A DNA stretch of 6,005 nt from a virus. Lineage: Duplodnaviria > Heunggongvirae > Uroviricota > Caudoviricetes. The position numbers and the translations under genes are program-made. Location: the IMG/VR virus record IMGVR_UViG_2698536387_000007. One strand, 5' to 3'. Positions 1 to 6,005 of the stretch are shown piece by piece. Each line of letters opens with the position of its first letter. The stretch's first letter is position 1. The notes below the pieces were generated by a model. It searched no databases. It had not been told where the DNA came from and was given only the letters and a program-made list of their open reading frames with translations.

Positions 1-50
1 CAGTAGGTGTTCACCGTCGGCGGGTAAGGTAAAACCAAATCTATGAGCAT
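1..50 (-). CDS. rusA: RusA-like Holliday-junction resolvase, N-terminal fragment only (gene continues beyond the window start)
   Basis: Minus-strand ATG at 50..48 preceded by GAGGTGA, 12 nt downstream of the DUF968 stop. The 16 visible codons read MLIDLVLPYPPTVNTY, matching from memory the RusA N-terminal motif (LPWPPSxNxYY). Only a fragment is visible. Confidence 0.45.
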   Translation of the reverse strand, partial: MLIDLVLPYPPTVNTY

Positions 51-62
51 CAGTCACCTCTT

Positions 63-1112
63 TTACCCGAGCACGCCAGTCGCAAAGGCGTGATCAAGAA
101 AACGAAAAATTAACTCAATCTGAGAGCCGTACTTTTTCTCAAACTCCAGCGGGTCTGCATGAAGTTCGTTGTGGTGCTCCCGGCACAACGGTAGCGTGAA
201 AATATCGTGGGCCTTTGTCCCCATTCCCCCCTGACCATGACCAATCAGGTGATGCGGATCGTCAGCAGGCTTACCACAACACGCACACGGCTGTGTCTTT
301 ACCCAGCGCGTGTATTTCTCATTAACCCAACGGCAACGTTTAGGCCGCCTCATGAACGATTCAGGAGACTCCGGATCAACGGCGATACTGACAACCGTTT
401 TTTTCTGTGGTGGATTTTGTTGCTGGTGGACGTGAAGTGGCAGCGCAATATTTTTTGTGCGCTGCTTCAGTATGCTGATGGCTGTCTGTTCTCCCGGTAC
501 GATGTCACTCTCACGGTATACGGAGCGGATTTTTTCCGCTGGTAATCCCAGCGAACGACGCGCTACTGCCTCAGGTAGTGCATCCACCACCTGATTGCAG
601 GCCGCCCACCAGGATAATTCAGCCAGCGATAATTCACGCTCCTGTGTGCCATTCATTGCGTGACGAATGACGTCAATCATCCATGCTGACAAGTTTTGGT
701 GAGCAAGTTGCTCAAGTGATTCGGAGGTCTGGTCACGCAACTGGTTGTCGCAGTGCCAGCACAACACCATTGCGCCGGTACCATAACGGTGAATGACGGT
801 TTCACTGTGGTGATAATCGCCGTGTGGCCACTGGCAGGATTTAACATGGCGCAGTAACCAGTCAGACAATGCGCCAGCGCCACCAGCAGCACGAATCACT
901 CGTTCGTCGCTGAAAAATGGCAGTAATGATTTATCCTCCGCCAGCGGCTGGCGAACGGCAGGAACGACCCCGGACGGCAGATTACGCATGCTTTTCGGTT
1001 CCGGCTCCACCAGTACCCGGGTATTGTGGAATACCGGCATGGATTCACGGCCCGGCTTAACGATCACCAGCCCGAGTTCCGGTACCAGAACAGGTCGAAG
1101 TAATACCCGCAC
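63..1112 (-). CDS. ydfU: DUF968-family prophage protein (YdfU-like) with a C-terminal Cys/His HNH-like motif
   Basis: 349-aa ORF with GTG start at 1112 and GGAGG 4 nt upstream. C-terminus carries CACCGKPADDPHHLIGHGQGGMGTKAHDIFTLPLCREHHNELH (Cys pair plus spaced His). Position after hok and a rem-like gene matches my recollection of Qin-type prophage synteny. Family assignment is from memory. Confidence 0.75.
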   Translation of the reverse strand: MRVLLRPVLVPELGLVIVKPGRESMPVFHNTRVLVEPEPKSMRNLPSGVVPAVRQPLAEDKSLLPFFSDERVIRAAGGAGALSDWLLRHVKSCQWPHGDYHHSETVIHRYGTGAMVLCWHCDNQLRDQTSESLEQLAHQNLSAWMIDVIRHAMNGTQERELSLAELSWWAACNQVVDALPEAVARRSLGLPAEKIRSVYRESDIVPGEQTAISILKQRTKNIALPLHVHQQQNPPQKKTVVSIAVDPESPESFMRRPKRCRWVNEKYTRWVKTQPCACCGKPADDPHHLIGHGQGGMGTKAHDIFTLPLCREHHNELHADPLEFEKKYGSQIELIFRFLDHAFATGVLG

Positions 1113-1113
1113 G

Positions 1114-1392
1114 TTACCTCCAGATGCGTTGCTGGAATGTGCGGGACGGACGCGGTGGGCGTTCGGAGTAAGGAAGCCTGACGGAGATTATCCAGTGACG
1201 ATAATCGAGACTGAGGGCTTTCTTAACCTCGTATCCGCGCCTGCGGTAACACTGAATCAGCCATTCAGCCTGTTCTTCGGTGCAGGGGTCGTGCTGATAC
1301 CAGTCAGATTTGAATGCATGAGAACGCCGCCCGTGCCTGCTGGCAGGGGCGGCAGAGTTATCCGAATTGTAAAATTTGGTATCGTGCGCCAT
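1114..1392 (-). CDS. Small hypothetical protein, rem-like by position (92 aa)
   Basis: The 135-aa ORF in the track begins inside the intrinsic terminator, so its first ~43 codons are unlikely to be coding. First in-frame ATG after the terminator is 1392..1390 (MAHDTKFYNSD...), with a weak SD (GAGAAAACAG). Stop lies 1 nt from the DUF968 start. Confidence 0.45.
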   Translation of the reverse strand: MAHDTKFYNSDNSAAPASRHGRRSHAFKSDWYQHDPCTEEQAEWLIQCYRRRGYEVKKALSLDYRHWIISVRLPYSERPPRPSRTFQQRIWR

Positions 1393-1461
1393 CTGTTTTC
1401 TCTGCTGGCGCAGCAGGTGCCAGTTGTTCAGGCTGACGGATGGATTGTAAACCAGAACGAC

Positions 1462-1491
1462 CAGAAAAAACAAAACCCGCCGAAGCGGGTT
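1462..1491 (-). terminator. Rho-independent terminator ending the hok transcript
   Basis: On the minus strand: stem AACCCGC, UUCG tetraloop, stem GCGGGUU (1474-1491), followed directly by UUGUUUUUUCU (1473..1462). It sits 30 nt downstream of the hok stop. Confidence 0.8.
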
Positions 1492-1522
1492 AAGTGCGGG
1501 TGCGTTGAGGATGCCTGACACA

Positions 1523-1657
1523 TCAGCGGTGGCGAGGGATTTCTCCCCCGCCTGGTAATCGTACCTCGCAGAGGTCTTTCCTCGTTACCAGTGCCGTCAC
1601 TATGACGGTTAAACAGATGACGATCAGGGCGATTAACATCGCCTTTTGCTGCTTCAT
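1523..1657 (-). CDS. hok: Hok/Gef-family type I toxin, variant with the conserved C-terminal tail replaced (44 aa; possible deletion derivative or pseudogene)
   Basis: MKQQKAMLIALIVICLTVIVTALVTRKDLCEV matches the Hok/Gef/RelF transmembrane region as I remember it. SD AAGGAGAAG lies upstream of the ATG at 1657. The ORF then reads RLPGGGEIPRHR and stops, instead of the family tail (roughly IRTGQTEVAVFxAYE). The track's longer ORF (start 1714) is an in-frame leader extension, mok-like in position. Confidence 0.8.
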   Translation of the reverse strand: MKQQKAMLIALIVICLTVIVTALVTRKDLCEVRLPGGGEIPRHR

Positions 1658-1670
1658 AACCTGCTTCTCC

Positions 1671-1699
1671 TTGCCTTTCGGCGCGTAAGAGGCTAACCT
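1671..1699 (+). promoter_or_regulatory. Candidate promoter for the Sok-like antisense RNA
   Basis: Plus-strand TTGCCT (1671-1676), 17-nt spacer, TAACCT (1694-1699). This is antisense to the hok leader and start region, at the position where the R1 sok promoter lies as I recall it. The -10 is weak. Confidence 0.35.
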
Positions 1700-1705
1700 A
1701 CGTTT

Positions 1706-1780
1706 GTGAAGCATAGATTGGGCCTCAGATTAATGTTAAGCGTCTTGCAGGACGCGTAATGTTAACTGGGGCTTTTCTCT
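1706..1780 (+). ncRNA. sok: Candidate Sok-like antisense RNA (type I antitoxin)
   Basis: Predicted start about 7 nt after the -10. The region is antisense to the hok leader, including the upstream in-frame ATG (1714..1712) and its SD. A structured segment (outer stem CCUCAG/CUGGGG at 1723-1728/1765-1770, inner stem GCGUC/GACGC at 1740-1744/1751-1755) is followed by the U-rich tail CUUUUCUCU (1771-1780). Boundaries are approximate. Confidence 0.35.
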
Positions 1781-1832
1781 GTCTGCCTTACGGTGGCATG
1801 CCCGAGGCAGACAGCCTCAAGCACCCGCAGCA

Positions 1833-1860
1833 ATTCTACTTAACTCTCGCTTTACAGCAA
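1833..1860 (-). promoter_or_regulatory. Candidate sigma70 promoter for the hok mRNA
   Basis: Minus-strand TTGCTG (1860..1855), 16-nt spacer, TAGAAT (1838..1833). The predicted start near 1826-1829 falls at the beginning of the segment complementary to the 3' fbi element. Confidence 0.45.
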
Positions 1861-1900
1861 ACCGTTTTGCCCGATATGGGAATTCCCATACGGAATGAAT

Positions 1901-2005
1901 TCAGTTCCCCAGGCGCTCCATCAAAAACACAACCAGGCAGTAAACACCCACAACAGCAATAACAGCCAGAGCGCCTTCCATTACCAGTGAAATATCATCC
2001 GACAT
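1901..2005 (-). CDS. Putative 34-aa hydrophobic small protein (MSDDISLVMEGALAVIAVVGVYCLVVFLMERLGN)
   Basis: Below the length cutoff of the ORF track. ATG at 2005..2003 is preceded by a strong SD (AAGGGAGGG, 3-4 nt spacer). It encodes one predicted transmembrane helix and ends at TGA 1903..1901. No homolog recognised. Confidence 0.35.
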   Translation of the reverse strand: MSDDISLVMEGALAVIAVVGVYCLVVFLMERLGN

Positions 2006-2114
2006 ATTCCCTCCCTTGGTGTGAATCCCGGCGAACGTTTTTACCCCCACCGACAAATAACATATACTAGAAAAGCAATAGCTATAGCAACGCCTGCAAA
2101 TGCATCTGGCCGGC

Positions 2115-2678
2115 TCATTGGTTCTCCCCCTGTGTCGCTTCTACTGCGATCTGACTGGCGTATTCGTTAATGGTAACGATAAGTTCTTGCTCGACCTCAT
2201 CCAGACAACTACCGATACCTCGCCTGTCCACTTCAGAAGCATCGAAATCTGCACGAAGCCTGGCGACCTTCAGGATTGCGGACAACACCTCATCAGGGAT
2301 TGCCGGAGAGTTGGTTGACGTTTCCGAGATTATCCGAAAATTATTGGTTGACGAACCCTTATTTTCCCGAAAGTTTCCAGCCTGAAGCATGGCGGCGCGG
2401 TGACACCAGATAATCCAGCCAAGCGCCATATCCCATGCCATGTATTCTCTATCGCCATTTTTTGCTCTGCGGCGATCTACAGATTCCCCGAAACGCTTCT
2501 CCATAAATAATTCATAGGCTGCCCGTTCATCCGATACTGATGCCAGTGATGCCAGTGCAATTTTTAATGCGGTAAGCATGTTGTTTTGATCTTCATCGAG
2601 TCCGAACGGTATTTCATCCCGTGATGACTCAATTCCGGTAATCGTGTTCTGTAGCCATTCTTTGGTTAATTCAGTCAT
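2115..2678 (-). CDS. Hypothetical protein, 187 aa
   Basis: Long minus-strand ORF whose ATG at 2678..2676 sits 9 nt downstream of a stable GNRA hairpin. It is separated from the upstream gene by a 126-bp AT-rich gap. No recognisable motif. Confidence 0.6.
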   Translation of the reverse strand: MTELTKEWLQNTITGIESSRDEIPFGLDEDQNNMLTALKIALASLASVSDERAAYELFMEKRFGESVDRRRAKNGDREYMAWDMALGWIIWCHRAAMLQAGNFRENKGSSTNNFRIISETSTNSPAIPDEVLSAILKVARLRADFDASEVDRRGIGSCLDEVEQELIVTINEYASQIAVEATQGENQ

Positions 2679-2686
2679 TTTTCACT

Positions 2687-2704
2687 ACCGCCCTTTCGGG
2701 CGGT
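2687..2704 (-). promoter_or_regulatory. GNRA-tetraloop hairpin in the 5' leader of the 187-aa gene
   Basis: Perfect 7-bp inverted repeat ACCGCCC/GGGCGGT with a 4-nt loop (GAAA on the minus-strand RNA). No U-tract follows on either strand, so it is not a canonical terminator. Confidence 0.4.
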
Positions 2705-2804
2705 CTCCTGATGTTCTGAGGGTGCAGGAATCCCTCCGGTTAAGGATTTAATAAAAATCATTTCTGATTTAAATTTTCAGTGTTTAGTTGTTGGTTTATA
2801 GCCT

Positions 2805-3116
2805 TTATGCTTCGGCCTTATTTCTCAGCCATACACAAACAGGACCATCTTCGGTGTCATGTATCGAACCGATAAACCATCCCTCACCTTCTGGTCGCTC
2901 AGGTTCCCATGCTGAAATATCAGGGCCATCTGCGTCCAGATTAAAATCATCTTCATCCATACTACGGATAGCCCACTGAAGATTATTTTTCTCCATCCAG
3001 GCGTTAAACTCTTCCGTTGAAATATATTCCCGACCATCACAGAATTTTTCATATTCAGGATGCGTCCAGCAGCCATATTCATTACGTTCCACTGGCATTT
3101 CTTTAATTGCGCTCAT
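2805..3116 (-). CDS. Hypothetical acidic protein, 103 aa
   Basis: ATG at 3116..3114 with SD GGGGGG 4 nt upstream; overlaps the stop of the upstream gene (ATGA). Last gene of a four-gene coupled cassette. Confidence 0.6.
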   Translation of the reverse strand: MSAIKEMPVERNEYGCWTHPEYEKFCDGREYISTEEFNAWMEKNNLQWAIRSMDEDDFNLDADGPDISAWEPERPEGEGWFIGSIHDTEDGPVCVWLRNKAEA

Positions 3117-3301
3117 TTACCCCCCTTATTTAATTTTCTACGACACTTTTTACAATCATCTGGACTTTCGAATGTATCCGGCTCACGCTCATTGCCAAAA
3201 TACATCCACCCACCGCAAATACTTGTTATTTCACCTTCAGCAAAATAATGATGTTTTTTCGCCATAAGTGGCCTTGCCCAGCCCGGATTCGTTTTACTCA
3301 C
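3113..3301 (-). CDS. Small Cys-containing protein, 62 aa (possible Zn-ribbon-like)
   Basis: GTG start at 3301..3299 with a strong SD (AAGGAGG, 6-nt spacer). The GTGA overlaps the stop of the upstream gene. Cysteines at SICGGW and CKKCRRK. Confidence 0.5.
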   Translation of the reverse strand: MSKTNPGWARPLMAKKHHYFAEGEITSICGGWMYFGNEREPDTFESPDDCKKCRRKLNKGGK

Positions 3302-3654
3302 TTGTTGCCTCCTTTGCGAAGCTCTGCGACTAACTCGTCACATATGTGCGTCAAAGAGCAAAGTTTGATTGCTGGATGTTCGCGCACCATCTCCACACCC
3401 TGCGCCCGCAATTCTGCCAGAAAAGCGTAGGGGTCAGTTTTTTCACTGTGGTACATGGCATCATAGATAATCATTGCAGCGACACCTGCCTGTCCTGCAT
3501 CTGTGACGGATATATGCTCAAGGGCTACGGCCATTGCGTGTTTCAACCTCTCATTTTCCACCTCAAGCACCACACGATTAGCCTCCAGCTCTTCTATGCG
3601 TTTTTTTGCTGCTCCCAGCTCAACACGCAGCTCCTGATAGTTAATCTCGCTCAT
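3298..3654 (-). CDS. Hypothetical protein with an N-terminal coiled coil, 118 aa
   Basis: ATG at 3654..3652 with a strong SD (GGGAGGAAGGAGA). The ATGA overlaps the stop of the 74-aa gene. N-terminal heptad-like ELRVELGAAKKRIEELEANRVVLEVENERLK. Confidence 0.6.
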   Translation of the reverse strand: MSEINYQELRVELGAAKKRIEELEANRVVLEVENERLKHAMAVALEHISVTDAGQAGVAAMIIYDAMYHSEKTDPYAFLAELRAQGVEMVREHPAIKLCSLTHICDELVAELRKGGNK

Positions 3655-3875
3655 TCTCCTTCCTCCCGCACTGCTGTTTTATATGCCCGAAGCACATGCG
3701 ATGTTTTTCCTGACACAGTGCTTCTCAGAAAGAAAATTCCACTGGTGTTTATTACCAGATACGGGTCAGCAAGACGCAGCATATCCAGTATGTGATTATG
3801 TTTTCTTGTTTCCAGCACCGTACTTGAAATAAGCATATGTGACACGGGGCCGAAATCATGATATCTGATTTTCAT
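3651..3875 (-). CDS. Hypothetical protein, 74 aa
   Basis: ATG at 3875..3873 with SD-like GGGTGA 21 nt after the upstream stop. Its stop overlaps the next start. No motif recognised. Confidence 0.5.
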   Translation of the reverse strand: MKIRYHDFGPVSHMLISSTVLETRKHNHILDMLRLADPYLVINTSGIFFLRSTVSGKTSHVLRAYKTAVREEGE

Positions 3876-3896
3876 ATCATCACCCTGCTGTAAAAA

Positions 3897-4595
3897 TTAC
3901 CCGTTATCTCCTGTCGTTATTTTCTGTATGACATCACGATGCTTATTAATTTCCCGCAGCGCGGCGCATAAGCGCTCCCACTTCTGAACCTGACCTTTTG
4001 CCCGGCGCAGCTCGCGGTTAGCCACATGCAGCGATGGTAAAATCAGACCATCCGGATGCTTTCTGATGAACGACGACTGTGACTGCACTGTGACCGCCAC
4101 ACTTTCAGTTTTAATTTCTTCCTGTGTTTCCGCTTCCCGGACTGGTAACGCAACACCTGCCGGCTGAGGAAAGGCTTTACCATCGGTTTCCGTTACCGAT
4201 GCAGCTTTCGGCTCTGCCGGTAAATTATCGCCCGGTATGCAGTAACGATATTTACCGTCCTGATTTACGCGAATCAGACGACCTTTGCTGACAGCCATCG
4301 CCAGTGATGAATTCGCCCGGCGGGAGGTAATCCCGAACATTAACGCCAGTTCGTCAGCCGACTGAGGACCATGCTGTTCAATCGCGTTAATCAGCATCTC
4401 TGCAGTGGTTTTTGGGGCCGCTTCAGTTGCCTCACTCGTCAGCCACCACATCGACCCCTTGTTATCAGCTTCGCCACGACGCTTCAGCTTCCAGAGTTCG
4501 GTAACAGCATCGTCACGGCTGATTTCAAGACGGGCTGCAATCTCGTGCGACGAGGCTTTTTTCAGTGCTTTCAGTGCGTCAAAAACGGTTTCCAT
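3897..4595 (-). CDS. Winged-helix protein, Ren-like in domain and position (232 aa)
   Basis: Start chosen at 4595..4593 (METVFDALK...) because of the strong SD GGGAGG with 8-nt spacer. The track start at 4661 would overlap the P-like gene by 32 nt. Two winged-helix-like segments; the second ([42 protein letters not shown]) resembles lambda Ren from memory. It sits directly after the P-like gene, as ren does in lambda. Confidence 0.6.
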
Positions 4596-4629
4596 TAAAT
4601 TTTCCTCCCGGTAAAAATTACTTCTCAAC

Positions 4630-5292
4630 TCAGACAAAACCGGCCGCCTTCCGGCGCTCATATTCCTGTTTCAGCAACTCAATTGGCGTTGGCCCTGGCG
4701 GGCGTTTGGGTGCTGCCAGTTGTCGCCGGACTGGCGGAACACTGAGGCCATTACCAACATGCTTTGCCCATTTCGTCAGCTGCCTTTCCACAAGCCGTTT
4801 TAACTCCCCTTCGGTCATCTGGCGCTCAATCCCCTTTGAACGCATCTCGAGGCAAATGTGGTACAGCACCGGCTGTGGCCACGGGTATTTATCACTCCCG
4901 TCGTACCGCCAGGATTCATTCCTCCAGCGACGGTATTCCTCCATCACGGCATCCACCGTCAGGCCAAATGGATTTGCCCCGCTCTCCGAAATCAACGCCA
5001 CAAACTCAGCCAGATCCGGAGGCCACGTTTCACCCGCCCGGCAGCGGTCCATGCACCGACGGCAGATCTGCCGAATTTGCTGTTCAGTCATCGCGCCAAT
5101 CTGAGCAATCCAGAGTTTCGACGGCGCAGCCCCGTTCTTCTGAGTCCAGCGGTTCGAATACACCTCCCCCATAAGCTCCCACAGCTTCCAGGCCGTTTCC
5201 GTTGCTGATAAATCCGTTTTCACGTTCCCACTGTTCGCGTGCAGCCCGGATTTCCTGAACTGCCCGTGATGCGGTGCCACCTGGTGCTGCAT
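4630..5292 (-). CDS. P: Lambda P-like replication protein (DnaB helicase loader)
   Basis: C-terminal two-thirds match lambda P as I recall it (TEQQIRQ..., [21 protein letters not shown], similar length). ATG at 5292..5290 has a good SD (AGGGGGT, 5-nt spacer). This start implies a 208-nt overlap with the O-like ORF; alternative in-frame starts are at 5172 and 5091. Confidence 0.75.
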
Positions 5293-6001
5293 GGCTTACC
5301 CCCTTGCTGACTGGTTTTACCTGTGCCCTGACGTGCTGCACGTGGCGGGCAAATTTCTGCTCCCACTGAACCTGCGTGAAAACCTTCCCCTCCGCCATCC
5401 AGTAATCCCGGAATGCGGCAAGCTCAGCAGGTGTAAACTCAGGCTCAGGCAGAGCCATACCCCACACTGCTGCCCGCTGTCGAAAATCCGGCGACGGTTG
5501 CCAGACTCCAGTCATCGGAAATTTCCCGATCGGTTCGCTCAGGCCGTCCAGGTATTCAGGTTCGGCTGTCTGCAACGACGCGTCATTCAACTCACCGGTC
5601 GTAGCACTCTCGCGCATGCGCGCGTTATGTGTGGGGTTTAATTCTTTATCTGTATCTGTATCTGTCGTGATTTGTCGTGACATATGCGTGACGCGTCGTG
5701 ACTCATCGTGACAATCAGTGTTCTGCTTCCGCAGTCTTTCCCGCTCCCGCTGCGCTCTCTTGCGCTCTGCCGGGGATTTTGCGGTTTGCGAAACATTACC
5801 GTTATCCTCCTTCATCACCTGGCGTTTTTCCCATCCGGAAATAAGATCACCATCCAGAACTCGCCCCTGCATTGCATGCAAAATTGAATCAATCACGTCT
5901 TCCGTCACATCAAGCGCACTTGCTAAATCTTCCGTCGTGACATCAATGTGACCACGTAGTGACACGCCGTGACATGTCGTGACATTTCGTGACGCACTCA
6001 C
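5084..6001 (-). CDS. O-like replication initiator with iterons inside the coding sequence; 5' end may lie beyond the window
   Basis: 305-aa ORF directly upstream of the P-like gene. The visible start is GTG at the window edge and the frame stays open to position 6005, so the true N-terminus is uncertain. An N-terminal HTH-like segment (DLASALDVTEDVIDSILHAMQ) and a basic/TDTD linker are encoded by the iteron DNA. The C-terminal segment is W/F-rich (FRDYWMAEGKVFTQVQWEQKF). Confidence 0.6.
   Translation of the reverse strand: MSASRNVTTCHGVSLRGHIDVTTEDLASALDVTEDVIDSILHAMQGRVLDGDLISGWEKRQVMKEDNGNVSQTAKSPAERKRAQRERERLRKQNTDCHDESRRVTHMSRQITTDTDTDKELNPTHNARMRESATTGELNDASLQTAEPEYLDGLSEPIGKFPMTGVWQPSPDFRQRAAVWGMALPEPEFTPAELAAFRDYWMAEGKVFTQVQWEQKFARHVQHVRAQVKPVSKGVSHAAPGGTASRAVQEIRAAREQWERENGFISNGNGLEAVGAYGGGVFEPLDSEERGCAVETLDCSDWRDD
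5649..5722. repeat. Iteron array A: ori-like direct repeats with GTGA(C/T) core at 10-11 bp phasing, plus flanking ATCTGT repeats
   Basis: GTGA(C/T) begins at 5667, 5677, 5688, 5698 and 5708, with a degenerate copy at 5718. ATCTGT x3 lies at 5648-5665. The array falls in the linker-coding part of the O-like ORF. Confidence 0.6.
5937..5998. repeat. Iteron array B: six direct GTGAC-core repeats at 10-11 bp phasing
   Basis: GTGAC begins at 5937, 5948, 5959, 5969, 5979 and 5989, consensus about GTGACAnnnC, same orientation as array A. It lies at the 5' end of the O-like ORF and encodes the low-complexity residues 1-22. Confidence 0.6.
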
Positions 6002-6005
6002 CAGA

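What the first reader, a model, noticed from the sequence alone, without database searches (positions are those of the whole stretch)
1462..1860. hok/sok-type toxin-antitoxin locus with intact RNA regulatory elements but a Hok ORF missing its conserved C-terminal tail
The ORF at 1523-1657 has a Hok/Gef-like transmembrane N-terminus but ends ...CEVRLPGGGEIPRHR instead of the family tail. The codons after CEVR coincide with a 9-bp GNRA hairpin (minus-strand GGCGGGGGA-GAAA-UCCCUCGCC, plus coordinates 1531-1552) that resembles the hairpin just after the stop codon in plasmid R1 hok (from memory). That suggests a roughly 55-60 nt internal deletion fused the transmembrane-coding part to the 3' UTR. 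The promoter, 5'-3' complementarity, upstream leader ORF, Sok region and terminator all appear preserved. This could be a detoxified hok kept for its RNA elements, or a Hok variant with a new tail.
Basis: partly seen in the sequence, partly recalled or inferred. Interest (0 to 1): 0.7.

Follow-up and report, generated by a model that had tools for sequence, protein, structure and literature searches.

The report
Broken copy of prophage hokD toxin
This is the well-known hokD/sok toxin-antitoxin locus of an E. coli O157 lambdoid prophage, in which a one-off deletion found in no other public sequence has removed the toxin's tail, so it is most likely a freshly inactivated gene and not a new kind of system.

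Summary
On the minus strand, 1657..1523 encodes a 44-aa peptide. Its first 33 residues are identical to E. coli HokD, and it then reads LPGGGEIPRHR through a 9-bp GAAA-loop hairpin (1552..1531).

The window is base-for-base identical to the E. coli O157 strain 493/89 prophage, apart from one event. Sixty nt (HokD codons 34-51, the stop codon and 3 nt) are replaced by TT at 1558-1557, a net loss of 58 nt.

Everything else in the hok mRNA is untouched:
- promoter
- 5'-3' (tac/fbi) closure
- in-frame mok-like start
- Sok region
- terminal stem
- terminator

I did not find the junction or the 44/63-aa products in 5,426 complete E. coli genomes, PLSDB, IMG/VR, the GTDB representatives, JGI metagenomes or a 15-billion-protein collection. 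The intact 51-aa HokD is on at least 1,000 contigs. Other single-copy disruptions of the HokD tail do exist.

The deleted part holds the second periplasmic beta-strand and the TadA-editable Tyr47 (TACG). Published work on R1 Hok, Gef and HokB shows that Hok-family toxicity does not survive premature stops, C-terminal extension or tagging, or replacement of the tail.

Verdict: a private loss-of-function allele, or a sequence artefact, of a known locus. The RNA elements are intact because the lesion is recent. Nothing shows they are being retained. Low interest.

The parts
1833..1860 (-). Candidate hok promoter: -35 TTGCTG (1860..1855), 16-nt spacer, -10 TAGAAT (1838..1833). This places +1 at G1826.
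   Evidence: Read from the sequence. The -10 occupies -12..-7 relative to the start of the Rfam model match, the same positions as the R1 hok -10 box in PMC9841398. The consensus scanner did not report it because the -35 matches only 3 of 6.
1465..1826 (-). Full-length hok (mok-hok) mRNA, about 362 nt here against about 420 nt in the intact reference.
   Evidence: The 5' end comes from the Rfam match and the 3' end from the terminator. Fold energy is -151.9 kcal/mol with z = -7.2. The reference folds at -174.9 kcal/mol with z = -6.5.
1652..1826 (-). hok mRNA leader (tac, ucb, mok SD and start, Sok target), up to the hok AUG.
   Evidence: Rfam RF01794 'sok', 114.9 bits against a gathering score of 59, E = 2e-26, full model 1-157. 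The match is on the hok-mRNA strand.
1815..1826 (-). tac: the 5' end of the mRNA, which pairs with fbi in the full-length form. When the 3' end is removed it refolds onto mRNA positions 52-59 (ucb-like).
   Evidence: Full-length fold. Folds of 3'-shortened forms show (((.((((...))))))) between positions 1-8 and 52-59.
1498..1510 (-). fbi: the 3' element CCUCAACGCACCC, which pairs with the 5' end GGGUGCUUGAGG.
   Evidence: Minimum-energy and centroid structures of both the window and the reference.
1523..1714 (-). mok-like leader reading frame, an in-frame upstream ATG at 1714..1712. It is 63 aa here and 70 aa in intact loci.
   Evidence: ORF list. Intact 70-aa counterparts are P0007-like and P0076. 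Sakai annotates a 'regulatory protein MokC' here.
1671..1780 (+). Candidate Sok antisense unit: -35 TTGCCT (1671-1676), 17-nt spacer, -10 TAACCT (1694-1699), RNA at about 1706-1780. It is complementary to the mok start region.
   Evidence: Promoter read by eye. The RNA folds as a 9-nt single-stranded 5' tail, a long hairpin and a U-rich tail at -30.7 kcal/mol. Homology to the R1 Sok promoter is from memory. The scanner did not report it.
1523..1657 (-). Truncated hokD ORF, 44 aa: residues 1-33 are HokD and residues 34-44 (LPGGGEIPRHR) are translated 3' UTR.
   Evidence: Residues 1-33 are identical to HOKD_ECOLI.
1557..1558 (-). Deletion junction. TT on the hok strand replaces the 60 nt ATCCGAACC...GAGTAAGAG (HokD codons 34-51, stop codon, 3 nt).
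   Evidence: Exact prefix and suffix comparison with strain 493/89 and alignment. There is no flanking direct repeat, and no allele among 117 IMG/VR copies explains the TT.
1531..1552 (-). GAAA-loop hairpin. It is the counterpart of the terminal protective stem of the processed (Tr) hok mRNA, and it now lies inside the ORF.
   Evidence: -17.3 kcal/mol. It is present in every fold. Its core is conserved in at least 120 IMG/VR contigs. The role of the R1 counterpart is described in PMC9841398.
1523..1525 (-). New stop codon UGA. It starts 6 nt after the last paired base of the hairpin.
   Evidence: Sequence and mRNA coordinates 302-304 against hairpin 275-296.
1465..1491 (-). Intrinsic terminator AACCCGCTTCGGCGGGTT followed by a T-run.
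   Evidence: It is also present.

Best explanation
[quoted passage not shown] In Sakai it sits in prophage Sp14, and it has the same architecture as the characterised hokW-sokW of Sp5. In intact copies a stable, folded-back mRNA is closed by pairing of its 5' (tac) and 3' (fbi) ends and is translationally inert. Slow 3' trimming back to a protective terminal hairpin lets the 5' end refold, which exposes the mok and hok start regions. The short-lived antisense Sok RNA then either triggers decay of that mRNA or, if Sok is gone, the 51-aa membrane toxin is made.

In this window one complex deletion (60 nt replaced by TT) has removed the periplasmic C-terminal third of HokD. That third holds the second beta-strand and Tyr47, whose TACG codon context is the TadA editing site that creates the partner of Cys30. 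It also removed the stop codon, so the ORF now runs through the terminal hairpin to a UGA 6 nt beyond it. The product keeps the membrane anchor but has lost the part that published work shows to be needed for killing, so the toxin is most likely dead.

The transcription signals, the tac/fbi closure, the mok start, the Sok unit and the terminator are unchanged, so the RNAs are probably still made. That is the expected state of a very recent private mutation (or a sequence artefact). It is not evidence that the RNA parts are being maintained.

Shown here: the deletion and its exact extent, the identity of the rest of the window to the parent, my failure to find the allele anywhere else, and the preserved predicted folds. 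Inferred: loss of toxicity, continued RNA expression, and recency.
For: - Apart from the 60-to-2 nt replacement, the window is identical to O157 strain 493/89 over all 6,005 nt, where RefSeq annotates hokD (WP_000813254.1).
- That 51-aa product is exactly HOKD_ECOLI and is on at least 1,000 contigs.
- Rfam hok leader at 114.9 bits. tac/fbi closure in the window and reference folds. tac refolding when the 3' end is removed, and a Sok-like fold.
- The deletion removes only a local hairpin, mRNA positions 289-331. Its 9-nt loop holds the TACG motif, and all 117 IMG/VR copies examined keep that motif.
- The Pfam match stops at profile position 33 of 42.
- Junction and peptides not found: 5,426 complete E. 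coli genomes, plasmids, GTDB representatives, IMG/VR and JGI metagenomes, 153 billion gene positions and 15 billion proteins. A positive control found at least 120 IMG/VR contigs with the intact spacing.
- Other rare disruptions of the HokD tail exist. Judged from their protein sequences they include deletions into the 3' UTR frame (P0001, P0003), frameshifts (P0005, P0007, P0029), an in-frame deletion (P0036) and a DNA-confirmed 1-nt frameshift allele on 18 contigs (P0015).
- Literature. For R1 Hok, 18 of the 20 stop codons reachable by one substitution, loss of the stop codon (17-aa extension) and a C-terminal FLAG tag each abolish toxicity, and the 3' terminal stem is needed for the processed mRNA to persist (PMC9841398). 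For Gef, replacing the C-terminal region with PhoA gives a non-toxic protein (Poulsen 1991, as cited in PMC8509063). Hok family members carry a hard-coded Cys plus a TACG-editable Tyr on two C-terminal beta-strands (PMC5630033). In HokB the corresponding C29-C46 pair and DsbA are needed for toxicity (PMC12214031). Chromosomal hok loci are often inactivated (same papers).
Against: - Single alanine substitutions of conserved R1 Hok residues, including C31A, E41A and E49A, did not abolish toxicity on overexpression (bioRxiv 10.1101/2025.08.07.668861), so the tail tolerates some change. HokC work shows that the transmembrane part also matters for toxicity (PMC8509063).
- The lesion is not a clean slippage deletion: it has 2 filler nt and no flanking repeat. 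That leaves its origin open between a natural complex event, a cloning or assembly artefact, and a deliberate edit.
- The collections searched do not contain every draft E. coli assembly as DNA.
Confidence: 0.78

Rival explanations
1. The deletion is not biological. It would be an assembly or consensus error, a mutation picked up while the toxic locus was cloned or passaged in the laboratory, or an edit introduced into the sequence.
For: The window is 100.0% identical to a public complete genome (493/89) at every other position. I did not find the junction in any collection searched or the products among 15 billion proteins. The 60-to-2 nt form has no flanking repeat. Selection against active hok in cloned or engineered settings readily yields truncations and complex mutations (PMC9841398).
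Against: Rare disruptions of the HokD tail are found in other public assemblies, and their protein sequences point to comparable deletions in P0001 and P0003. A private natural allele is therefore unremarkable. Nothing in the sequence itself marks it as artificial.
Confidence: 0.15
2. The 44-aa peptide is a functional Hok variant, with a membrane anchor and a new basic, Gly/Pro-rich tail, that still damages or modulates the membrane.
For: The transmembrane helix, Cys30 and the translation signals are intact. HokC toxicity depends partly on the transmembrane region (PMC8509063). Single alanine changes in the R1 Hok tail are tolerated.
Against: The tail is translated 3' UTR and I found it nowhere else. 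Premature stops, extensions, tags and replacement of the C-terminus abolish toxicity in R1 Hok and Gef. The editable Tyr47 partner of Cys30 is gone. The ORF must also melt the hairpin that protects the translatable mRNA.
Confidence: 0.05
3. This is a disarmed locus retained for its RNAs. Sok, or the hok leader, would act in trans on the several other hokD-type copies carried by O157 prophages, and the toxin part would be dispensable.
For: All RNA elements are intact. The complete O157-type genomes listed carry 3-10 places that match this region, so cross-talk between Sok and hok copies is conceivable.
Against: Retention cannot be inferred from a single sequence with zero substitutions since the event. 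No second instance exists. Intact spacing is essentially invariant, 116 of 117 IMG/VR copies.
Confidence: 0.02

Closest known systems
hokD (relF) of E. coli, UniProt HOKD_ECOLI, as carried with its full regulatory region on O157 lambdoid prophages (annotated hokD in strain 493/89, Sakai prophage Sp14 region)
   Same: The DNA is identical outside the deletion. Residues 1-33 are identical to HokD. It has the same promoter, leader, mok-like start, Sok region, terminal hairpin, fbi and terminator, and the same position between the replication genes and the DUF968/rusA/Q genes.
   Different: It lacks HokD codons 34-51 and the stop codon, and carries an 11-residue tail read from the 3' UTR. The K-12 Qin copy of hokD, in contrast, keeps the ORF but matches the window only from about 1671 towards the terminator, so it lacks the upstream leader and Sok part (rows H26-H28; PMC12214031).
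hokW-sokW of Sakai prophage Sp5 (PMC8621323)
   Same: It is a 51-aa Hok-family toxin with an antisense Sok on a lambdoid O157 prophage. It was shown experimentally to act as a type I toxin-antitoxin pair and to help phage release.
   Different: That locus is intact and toxic. I did not align the HokW sequence here, so its degree of identity to this locus is untested.
hok/sok (parB) of plasmid R1
   Same: The RNA logic is the same: tac/fbi closure, a mok leader, a Sok target, a terminal stem in the 3'-processed mRNA and a terminator.
   Different: The toxin sequence is only distantly similar (HokW is 44% identical to R1 Hok). Here the mok-like frame is in frame with hok. Here the toxin ORF is truncated.
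Decayed chromosomal and prophage hok alleles (K-12 hokA, hokC and hokE with insertion elements, and the rare HokD tail variants P0001, P0003, P0005, P0007, P0015, P0029, P0036)
   Same: The lesion is of the same class: it hits the toxin ORF, often right after CEVR(I), and leaves the upstream RNA elements recognisable (PMC12214031).
   Different: The breakpoints differ. Unlike P0015 (18 contigs), this allele has no second occurrence.

Membership tests
Hok/Gef toxin family (Pfam PF01848) | Profile match above the curated threshold over the N-terminal transmembrane helix | tested here: met
   54.5 bits against a cut-off of 22, residues 6-38 on profile positions 1-33. Residues 1-33 are identical to HokD.
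Hok/Gef toxin family (Pfam PF01848) | Complete domain including the C-terminal periplasmic part (profile positions 34-42) | tested here: not met
   The match ends at profile position 33 of 42, whereas the intact HokD covers 1-42 at 82.9 bits. The missing part lies in the 60 deleted nt.
Hok/Gef toxin family (Pfam PF01848) | Two periplasmic Cys positions, one hard-coded and one Cys or TACG-editable Tyr (PMC5630033, PMC12214031) | tested here: not met
   Cys30 is present. Tyr47 and its TACG motif (reference mRNA 308-311) are deleted. All 117 IMG/VR copies keep the motif.
Hok/Gef toxin family (Pfam PF01848) | Membrane-damaging toxicity on expression | not testable with these tools
   Needs an induction assay. 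The literature on R1 Hok and Gef predicts loss of toxicity.
[quoted passage not shown] | hok mRNA leader with conserved sequence and structure | tested here: met
   Rfam RF01794, 114.9 bits against a gathering score of 59, full-length model, on the hok strand.
[quoted passage not shown] | Long-range 5'-3' (tac/fbi) pairing that closes the full-length mRNA | tested here: met
   mRNA positions 1-12 pair with 317-329 in both the minimum-energy and centroid structures, z = -7.2. The reference shows the same pairing.
[quoted passage not shown] | Leader reading frame (mok) that starts upstream of hok and overlaps it | tested here: met
   In-frame ATG at 1714..1712, 63 aa here and 70 aa in intact relatives.
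[quoted passage not shown] | Antisense Sok RNA with its own promoter and terminator, complementary to the mok start region | tested here: inconclusive
   A plausible -35/-10 pair was read by eye and the RNA has a Sok-like fold at -30.7 kcal/mol. The consensus scanner found no plus-strand promoter or terminator, and expression cannot be tested.
[quoted passage not shown] | Stable terminal stem downstream of the stop codon that protects the 3'-processed, translatable mRNA | tested here: inconclusive
   The stem is present and unchanged at -17.3 kcal/mol. It no longer lies downstream of the ORF, because the ORF now runs through it to a stop 6 nt beyond. The processing site cannot be determined here.
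[quoted passage not shown] | Post-segregational or Sok-dependent control of killing | not testable with these tools
   Requires genetics.

The most novel reading that the evidence does not exclude
The allele would be a natural, viable 'disarmed' hok locus with two unusual consequences. First, the only translatable (3'-processed) mRNA form may end between the terminal hairpin and the new UGA. Ribosomes would then unwind the protective stem and run off a stop-less message, which would couple translation to mRNA decay and tmRNA tagging. Second, its intact Sok could act in trans on the other hokD-type copies on O157 prophages. Neither is excluded by my evidence, and neither is supported beyond the geometry: the stop codon starts 6 nt after the stem.
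Probability: 0.05. Interest if true: 0.4.

Novelty: already known. Interest (0 to 1): 0.15.

Why it matters
It matters little beyond correct annotation. The locus should be recorded as a hokD/sok module with a disrupted toxin gene (a pseudogene). It should not be recorded as a 44-aa Hok variant or a new RNA-only system.

It adds one example to a familiar pattern: toxin ORFs of chromosomal and prophage hok loci decay while their RNA scaffolds remain recognisable for a time. It also shows that the C-terminal third of HokD, which includes the TadA-editable Tyr47, is where such lesions often fall.

If the deletion were confirmed in a living isolate, it would be a ready-made natural control for testing whether the periplasmic tail is needed for HokD toxicity.

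Tried and rejected
- Searched for the exact junction: a 29-mer in the GTDB representatives and IMG/VR, and a 24-mer in JGI metagenomes. All gave zero matches.
- Searched more generally for any deletion that brings CTCTGCGAGGT within 30 nt of the hairpin core, in IMG/VR and the GTDB representatives. Zero matches. The control with the normal spacing found at least 120 contigs.
- Looked up the 44-aa and 63-aa products exactly. They are not on record.
- Ran a homology search for the new tail. No hit shares it.
- Looked for a parental allele that would turn the TT into simple microhomology. The I34L alleles use CTC, not TTA, and none of 23 distinct IMG/VR versions explains it. No donor for CGATTACCAGG exists in the window or in the 12-kb reference locus.
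- Considered deletion between the direct repeats TACGAA...TACGAA. That would remove 39 nt in frame, which is not what is seen.
- Tried to retrieve the loci encoding P0001, P0003 and P0036 to compare breakpoints. They are not in the gene-position index.
- Tried the supplementary tables of PMC9841398 to find the most C-terminal inactivating stop codon. They are not held.
- The consensus promoter scan found neither the hok nor the Sok promoter. Its only hit is a minus-strand site inside the leader, so both promoter assignments rest on reading by eye and on analogy.
- Did not attempt structure prediction of the 44-aa peptide. I judged it uninformative for so short a membrane peptide.

Full report
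**What is in the sequence**

On the minus strand, 1657..1523 encodes MKQQKAMLIALIVICLTVIVTALVTRKDLCEVRLPGGGEIPRHR, 44 aa. An in-frame upstream ATG at 1714 gives a 63-aa version. The peptide passes Pfam HOK_GEF at 54.5 bits against a cut-off of 22, but it matches only profile positions 1-33 of 42. The intact 51-aa HokD matches 1-42 at 82.9 bits. Codons 36-43 run through the hairpin GGCGGGGGA-GAAA-UCCCUCGCC at 1552..1531. That hairpin has 9 pairs including one G-U and folds at -17.3 kcal/mol.

**The deletion is real and exactly mapped**

The 501-nt region around the locus matches thousands of E. coli genomes, where it is annotated hokD. The match always comes in two pieces spanning 58 more bases than the query.

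The whole window is 100.0% identical to E. coli O157 strain 493/89 (NZ_CP038412.1), again in two pieces. A direct comparison shows that window 1-1556 and 1559-6005 are identical to that genome. Sixty reference bases are replaced by two. On the hok strand, ATCCGAACCGGCCAGACGGAGGTCGCTGTCTTCACAGCTTACGAACCTGAGGAGTAAGAG becomes TT (alignment).

The lost segment comprises HokD codons 34-51, the UAA stop and 3 nt. The reading frame shifts into the 3' UTR and ends at a UGA that starts 6 nt after the hairpin.

The event is not a clean slippage deletion. There is no flanking direct repeat. None of the 23 distinct versions of this segment seen in 117 IMG/VR copies supplies the TT by microhomology.

**Genomic context**

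The RefSeq annotation of the matching 493/89 segment places the locus in a lambdoid prophage. On one side lie the replication genes (DnaT-like initiator, replication protein P) and a run of small hypothetical genes. On the other side lie a DUF968 gene, rusA and the antiterminator Q. In strain Sakai the same region is annotated as prophage Sp14.

The intact product, WP_000813254.1, is exactly UniProt HOKD_ECOLI and occurs on at least 1,000 contigs.

**RNA elements**

- Rfam RF01794 matches 1826..1652 at 114.9 bits against a gathering score of 59. The match is on the hok-mRNA strand and ends at the hok AUG. It therefore certifies the hok leader, not the antisense RNA itself.
- A -10 box TAGAAT lies at -12..-7 relative to G1826, with TTGCTG 16 nt upstream. 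I read this by eye, and the scanner's thresholds were not met.
- The 362-nt transcript from 1826 to the terminator (1491..1474 plus the T-run) folds at -151.9 kcal/mol with z = -7.2. Its first 12 nt pair with 1510..1498 (CCUCAACGCACCC) in both the minimum-energy and centroid structures. This is the tac/fbi closure.
- The intact 420-nt reference has the same architecture at -174.9 kcal/mol.
- The deletion removes only a local hairpin at reference mRNA positions 289-331.
- When the 3' end is cut back to just past the GAAA hairpin, the 5' end refolds onto positions 52-59. This is what the R1 model expects for tac/ucb (model as summarised in PMC9841398).
- On the plus strand, TTGCCT-17 nt-TAACCT (1671-1699) precedes an RNA of about 75 nt (1706-1780). 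It folds as a short single-stranded tail, a long hairpin and a U-rich end at -30.7 kcal/mol, and it is complementary to the mok start. It is a good Sok candidate, but I read the promoter by eye and its correspondence to the R1 Sok promoter is from memory.

**Is the allele found anywhere else?**

I found it nowhere.

- In 5,426 complete E. coli genomes, every best match to a 101-nt probe across the junction is split by the 58-nt gap.
- The same holds for PLSDB plasmids.
- The INPHARED phage records have nothing closer than about 86% to the window as a whole.
- The exact junction is absent from the GTDB representative genomes, IMG/VR and JGI metagenomes.
- A looser pattern that would catch any deletion of 41 nt or more between the CEVR codons and the hairpin finds nothing in IMG/VR or the GTDB set.
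Of the 117 copies I parsed, 116 have the same 71-nt spacing.
- The 44-aa and 63-aa products are not among 153 billion gene positions or about 15 billion proteins.
- A homology search returned 506 Hok relatives and none carries this tail.

**Other broken HokD tails**

The same homology search shows that rare, mostly single-copy disruptions just after CEVR(I) exist. All but P0015 are judged from the protein sequence alone.

- P0001 and P0003 look like deletions that read into the 3' UTR and terminator frame.
- P0005, P0007 and P0029 look like frameshifts.
- P0036 looks like an in-frame deletion.
- P0004, P0006, P0010, P0011, P0013 and P0083 carry foreign tails.
- P0015 is a 1-nt frameshift allele, confirmed at the DNA level, that has spread to 18 contigs in a different prophage setting.

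The window's lesion belongs to this background of sporadic toxin decay.

**What the deletion should do**

This part rests on published work and inference, not on tests here.

For R1 hok (PMC9841398):
- 18 of the 20 stop codons reachable by one substitution were recovered as loss-of-function mutations.
- Loss of the stop codon, which adds 17 aa, was also recovered as loss of function.
- An 8-aa C-terminal FLAG tag abolishes toxicity.
- Mutations that weaken the terminal stem of the processed mRNA make that mRNA disappear.

For Gef, replacing the C-terminal region with PhoA gave a non-toxic protein (Poulsen et al. 1991, as cited in PMC8509063).

Hok proteins are modelled as an N-terminal helix plus two C-terminal beta-strands. 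Those strands carry one hard-coded Cys and one Cys or TACG-encoded Tyr that TadA can edit to Cys, and hokD is edited at that site (PMC5630033). In HokB the corresponding C29-C46 pair and DsbA are needed for toxicity (PMC12214031). In the reference here the TACG sits in the 9-nt loop of the deleted hairpin.

The window peptide keeps the anchor and Cys30. It loses the second strand and the editable Tyr47.

Two caveats apply. Single alanine substitutions in the R1 Hok tail are tolerated on overexpression (bioRxiv 10.1101/2025.08.07.668861). The transmembrane part also contributes to HokC toxicity (PMC8509063). Loss of toxicity is therefore very likely but not proven.

One further inference concerns the new stop codon, which starts 6 nt beyond the protective stem. 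If 3' processing stops within a few nt of the stem, as I recall for R1 (398 nt trimmed to 361 nt, from memory of Franch et al. 1997), the translatable form would lack a stop codon. Ribosomes would also have to melt the stem that protects it.

**Interpretation**

The best reading is a private, recent loss-of-function allele of a known prophage hokD/sok module. The RNA elements are intact because no other mutation has occurred since the event, with zero differences from 493/89 in 6 kb. That is not evidence that they are being kept.

I cannot tell a natural mutation from an assembly, cloning or editing artefact. Perfect identity to a public genome, a junction I found nowhere else and the 60-to-2 nt form keep that rival alive at about 15%. 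A functional toxin with a new tail, or an RNA-only retained locus, is not excluded but has nothing in its favour.

**Comparison with known systems and verdict**

The closest known entities are these:
- hokD (relF) itself
- the experimentally validated hokW-sokW of Sakai prophage Sp5 (PMC8621323)
- R1 hok/sok, for the RNA logic
- the decayed chromosomal hok loci of K-12 (as summarised in PMC12214031)

[quoted passage not shown] It fails the family's C-terminal features because they have been deleted.

Nothing here is new in kind. Interest is low. The finding's value is a correct annotation: a disrupted hokD, not a 44-aa Hok variant.

Noticed in passing
window 5663-5720 and 5934-6001: Two clusters of (T)CGTGAC repeats spaced about 10 bp apart, with 6 exact TCGTGAC against 0.77 expected. 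They lie inside the minus-strand DnaT-like replication-initiator gene. They look like origin iterons embedded in the initiator gene, as in lambda O.
   Followed up: partly
window 1826..1652 (minus strand): The Rfam family named 'sok antitoxin' (RF01794) matches the hok-mRNA strand from +1 to the hok AUG, not the antisense strand. In practice the model reports the hok leader. The Sok candidate lies on the plus strand at about 1706-1780.
   Followed up: partly
window 1551..1470 (minus strand): Sub-threshold match to Rfam isrK (RF01394), 27.2 bits against a gathering score of 50, E = 0.007. It covers the GAAA hairpin plus the terminator of the hok 3' UTR. It may be chance, or it may hint that this sRNA family resembles a hok 3' end.
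   Followed up: no
L002 4465-4884 (reference hok mRNA positions 289-331), deleted from the window: The TadA editing motif TACG (Tyr47 codon) sits in the 9-nt loop of a local hairpin in the intact mRNA. All 117 IMG/VR hokD-type copies examined keep it, and the spacing between the CEVR codons and the terminal hairpin is 71 nt in 116 of the 117.
   Followed up: partly
L003 1501-1632 (also L004, L005): A 43-aa HokD allele (P0015) caused by a 1-nt deletion after CEVR occurs on 18 contigs. Its prophage context differs: a KilA-N/BstA_C gene upstream and a TehB-like gene downstream, with a divergent 3' region. It is an example of a disrupted hokD that has persisted.
   Followed up: partly
window 1901-2005 and 2041-2118 (minus strand): Two very small hydrophobic ORFs lie just upstream of the hok promoter. 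One is 34 aa (MSDDISLVMEGALAVIAVVGVYCLVVFLMERLGN), annotated as hypothetical protein WP_001278460.1 in RefSeq, and the other is an unannotated 25-aa ORF. Their function is unknown.
   Followed up: no
rows H26-H28 (K-12-type strains): K-12-lineage genomes match only positions 230-435 of the query, which is window 1671..1466. Their Qin-prophage hokD therefore lacks the promoter, tac and Sok part present here. This agrees with the rearrangement reported in the literature (PMC12214031).
   Followed up: partly
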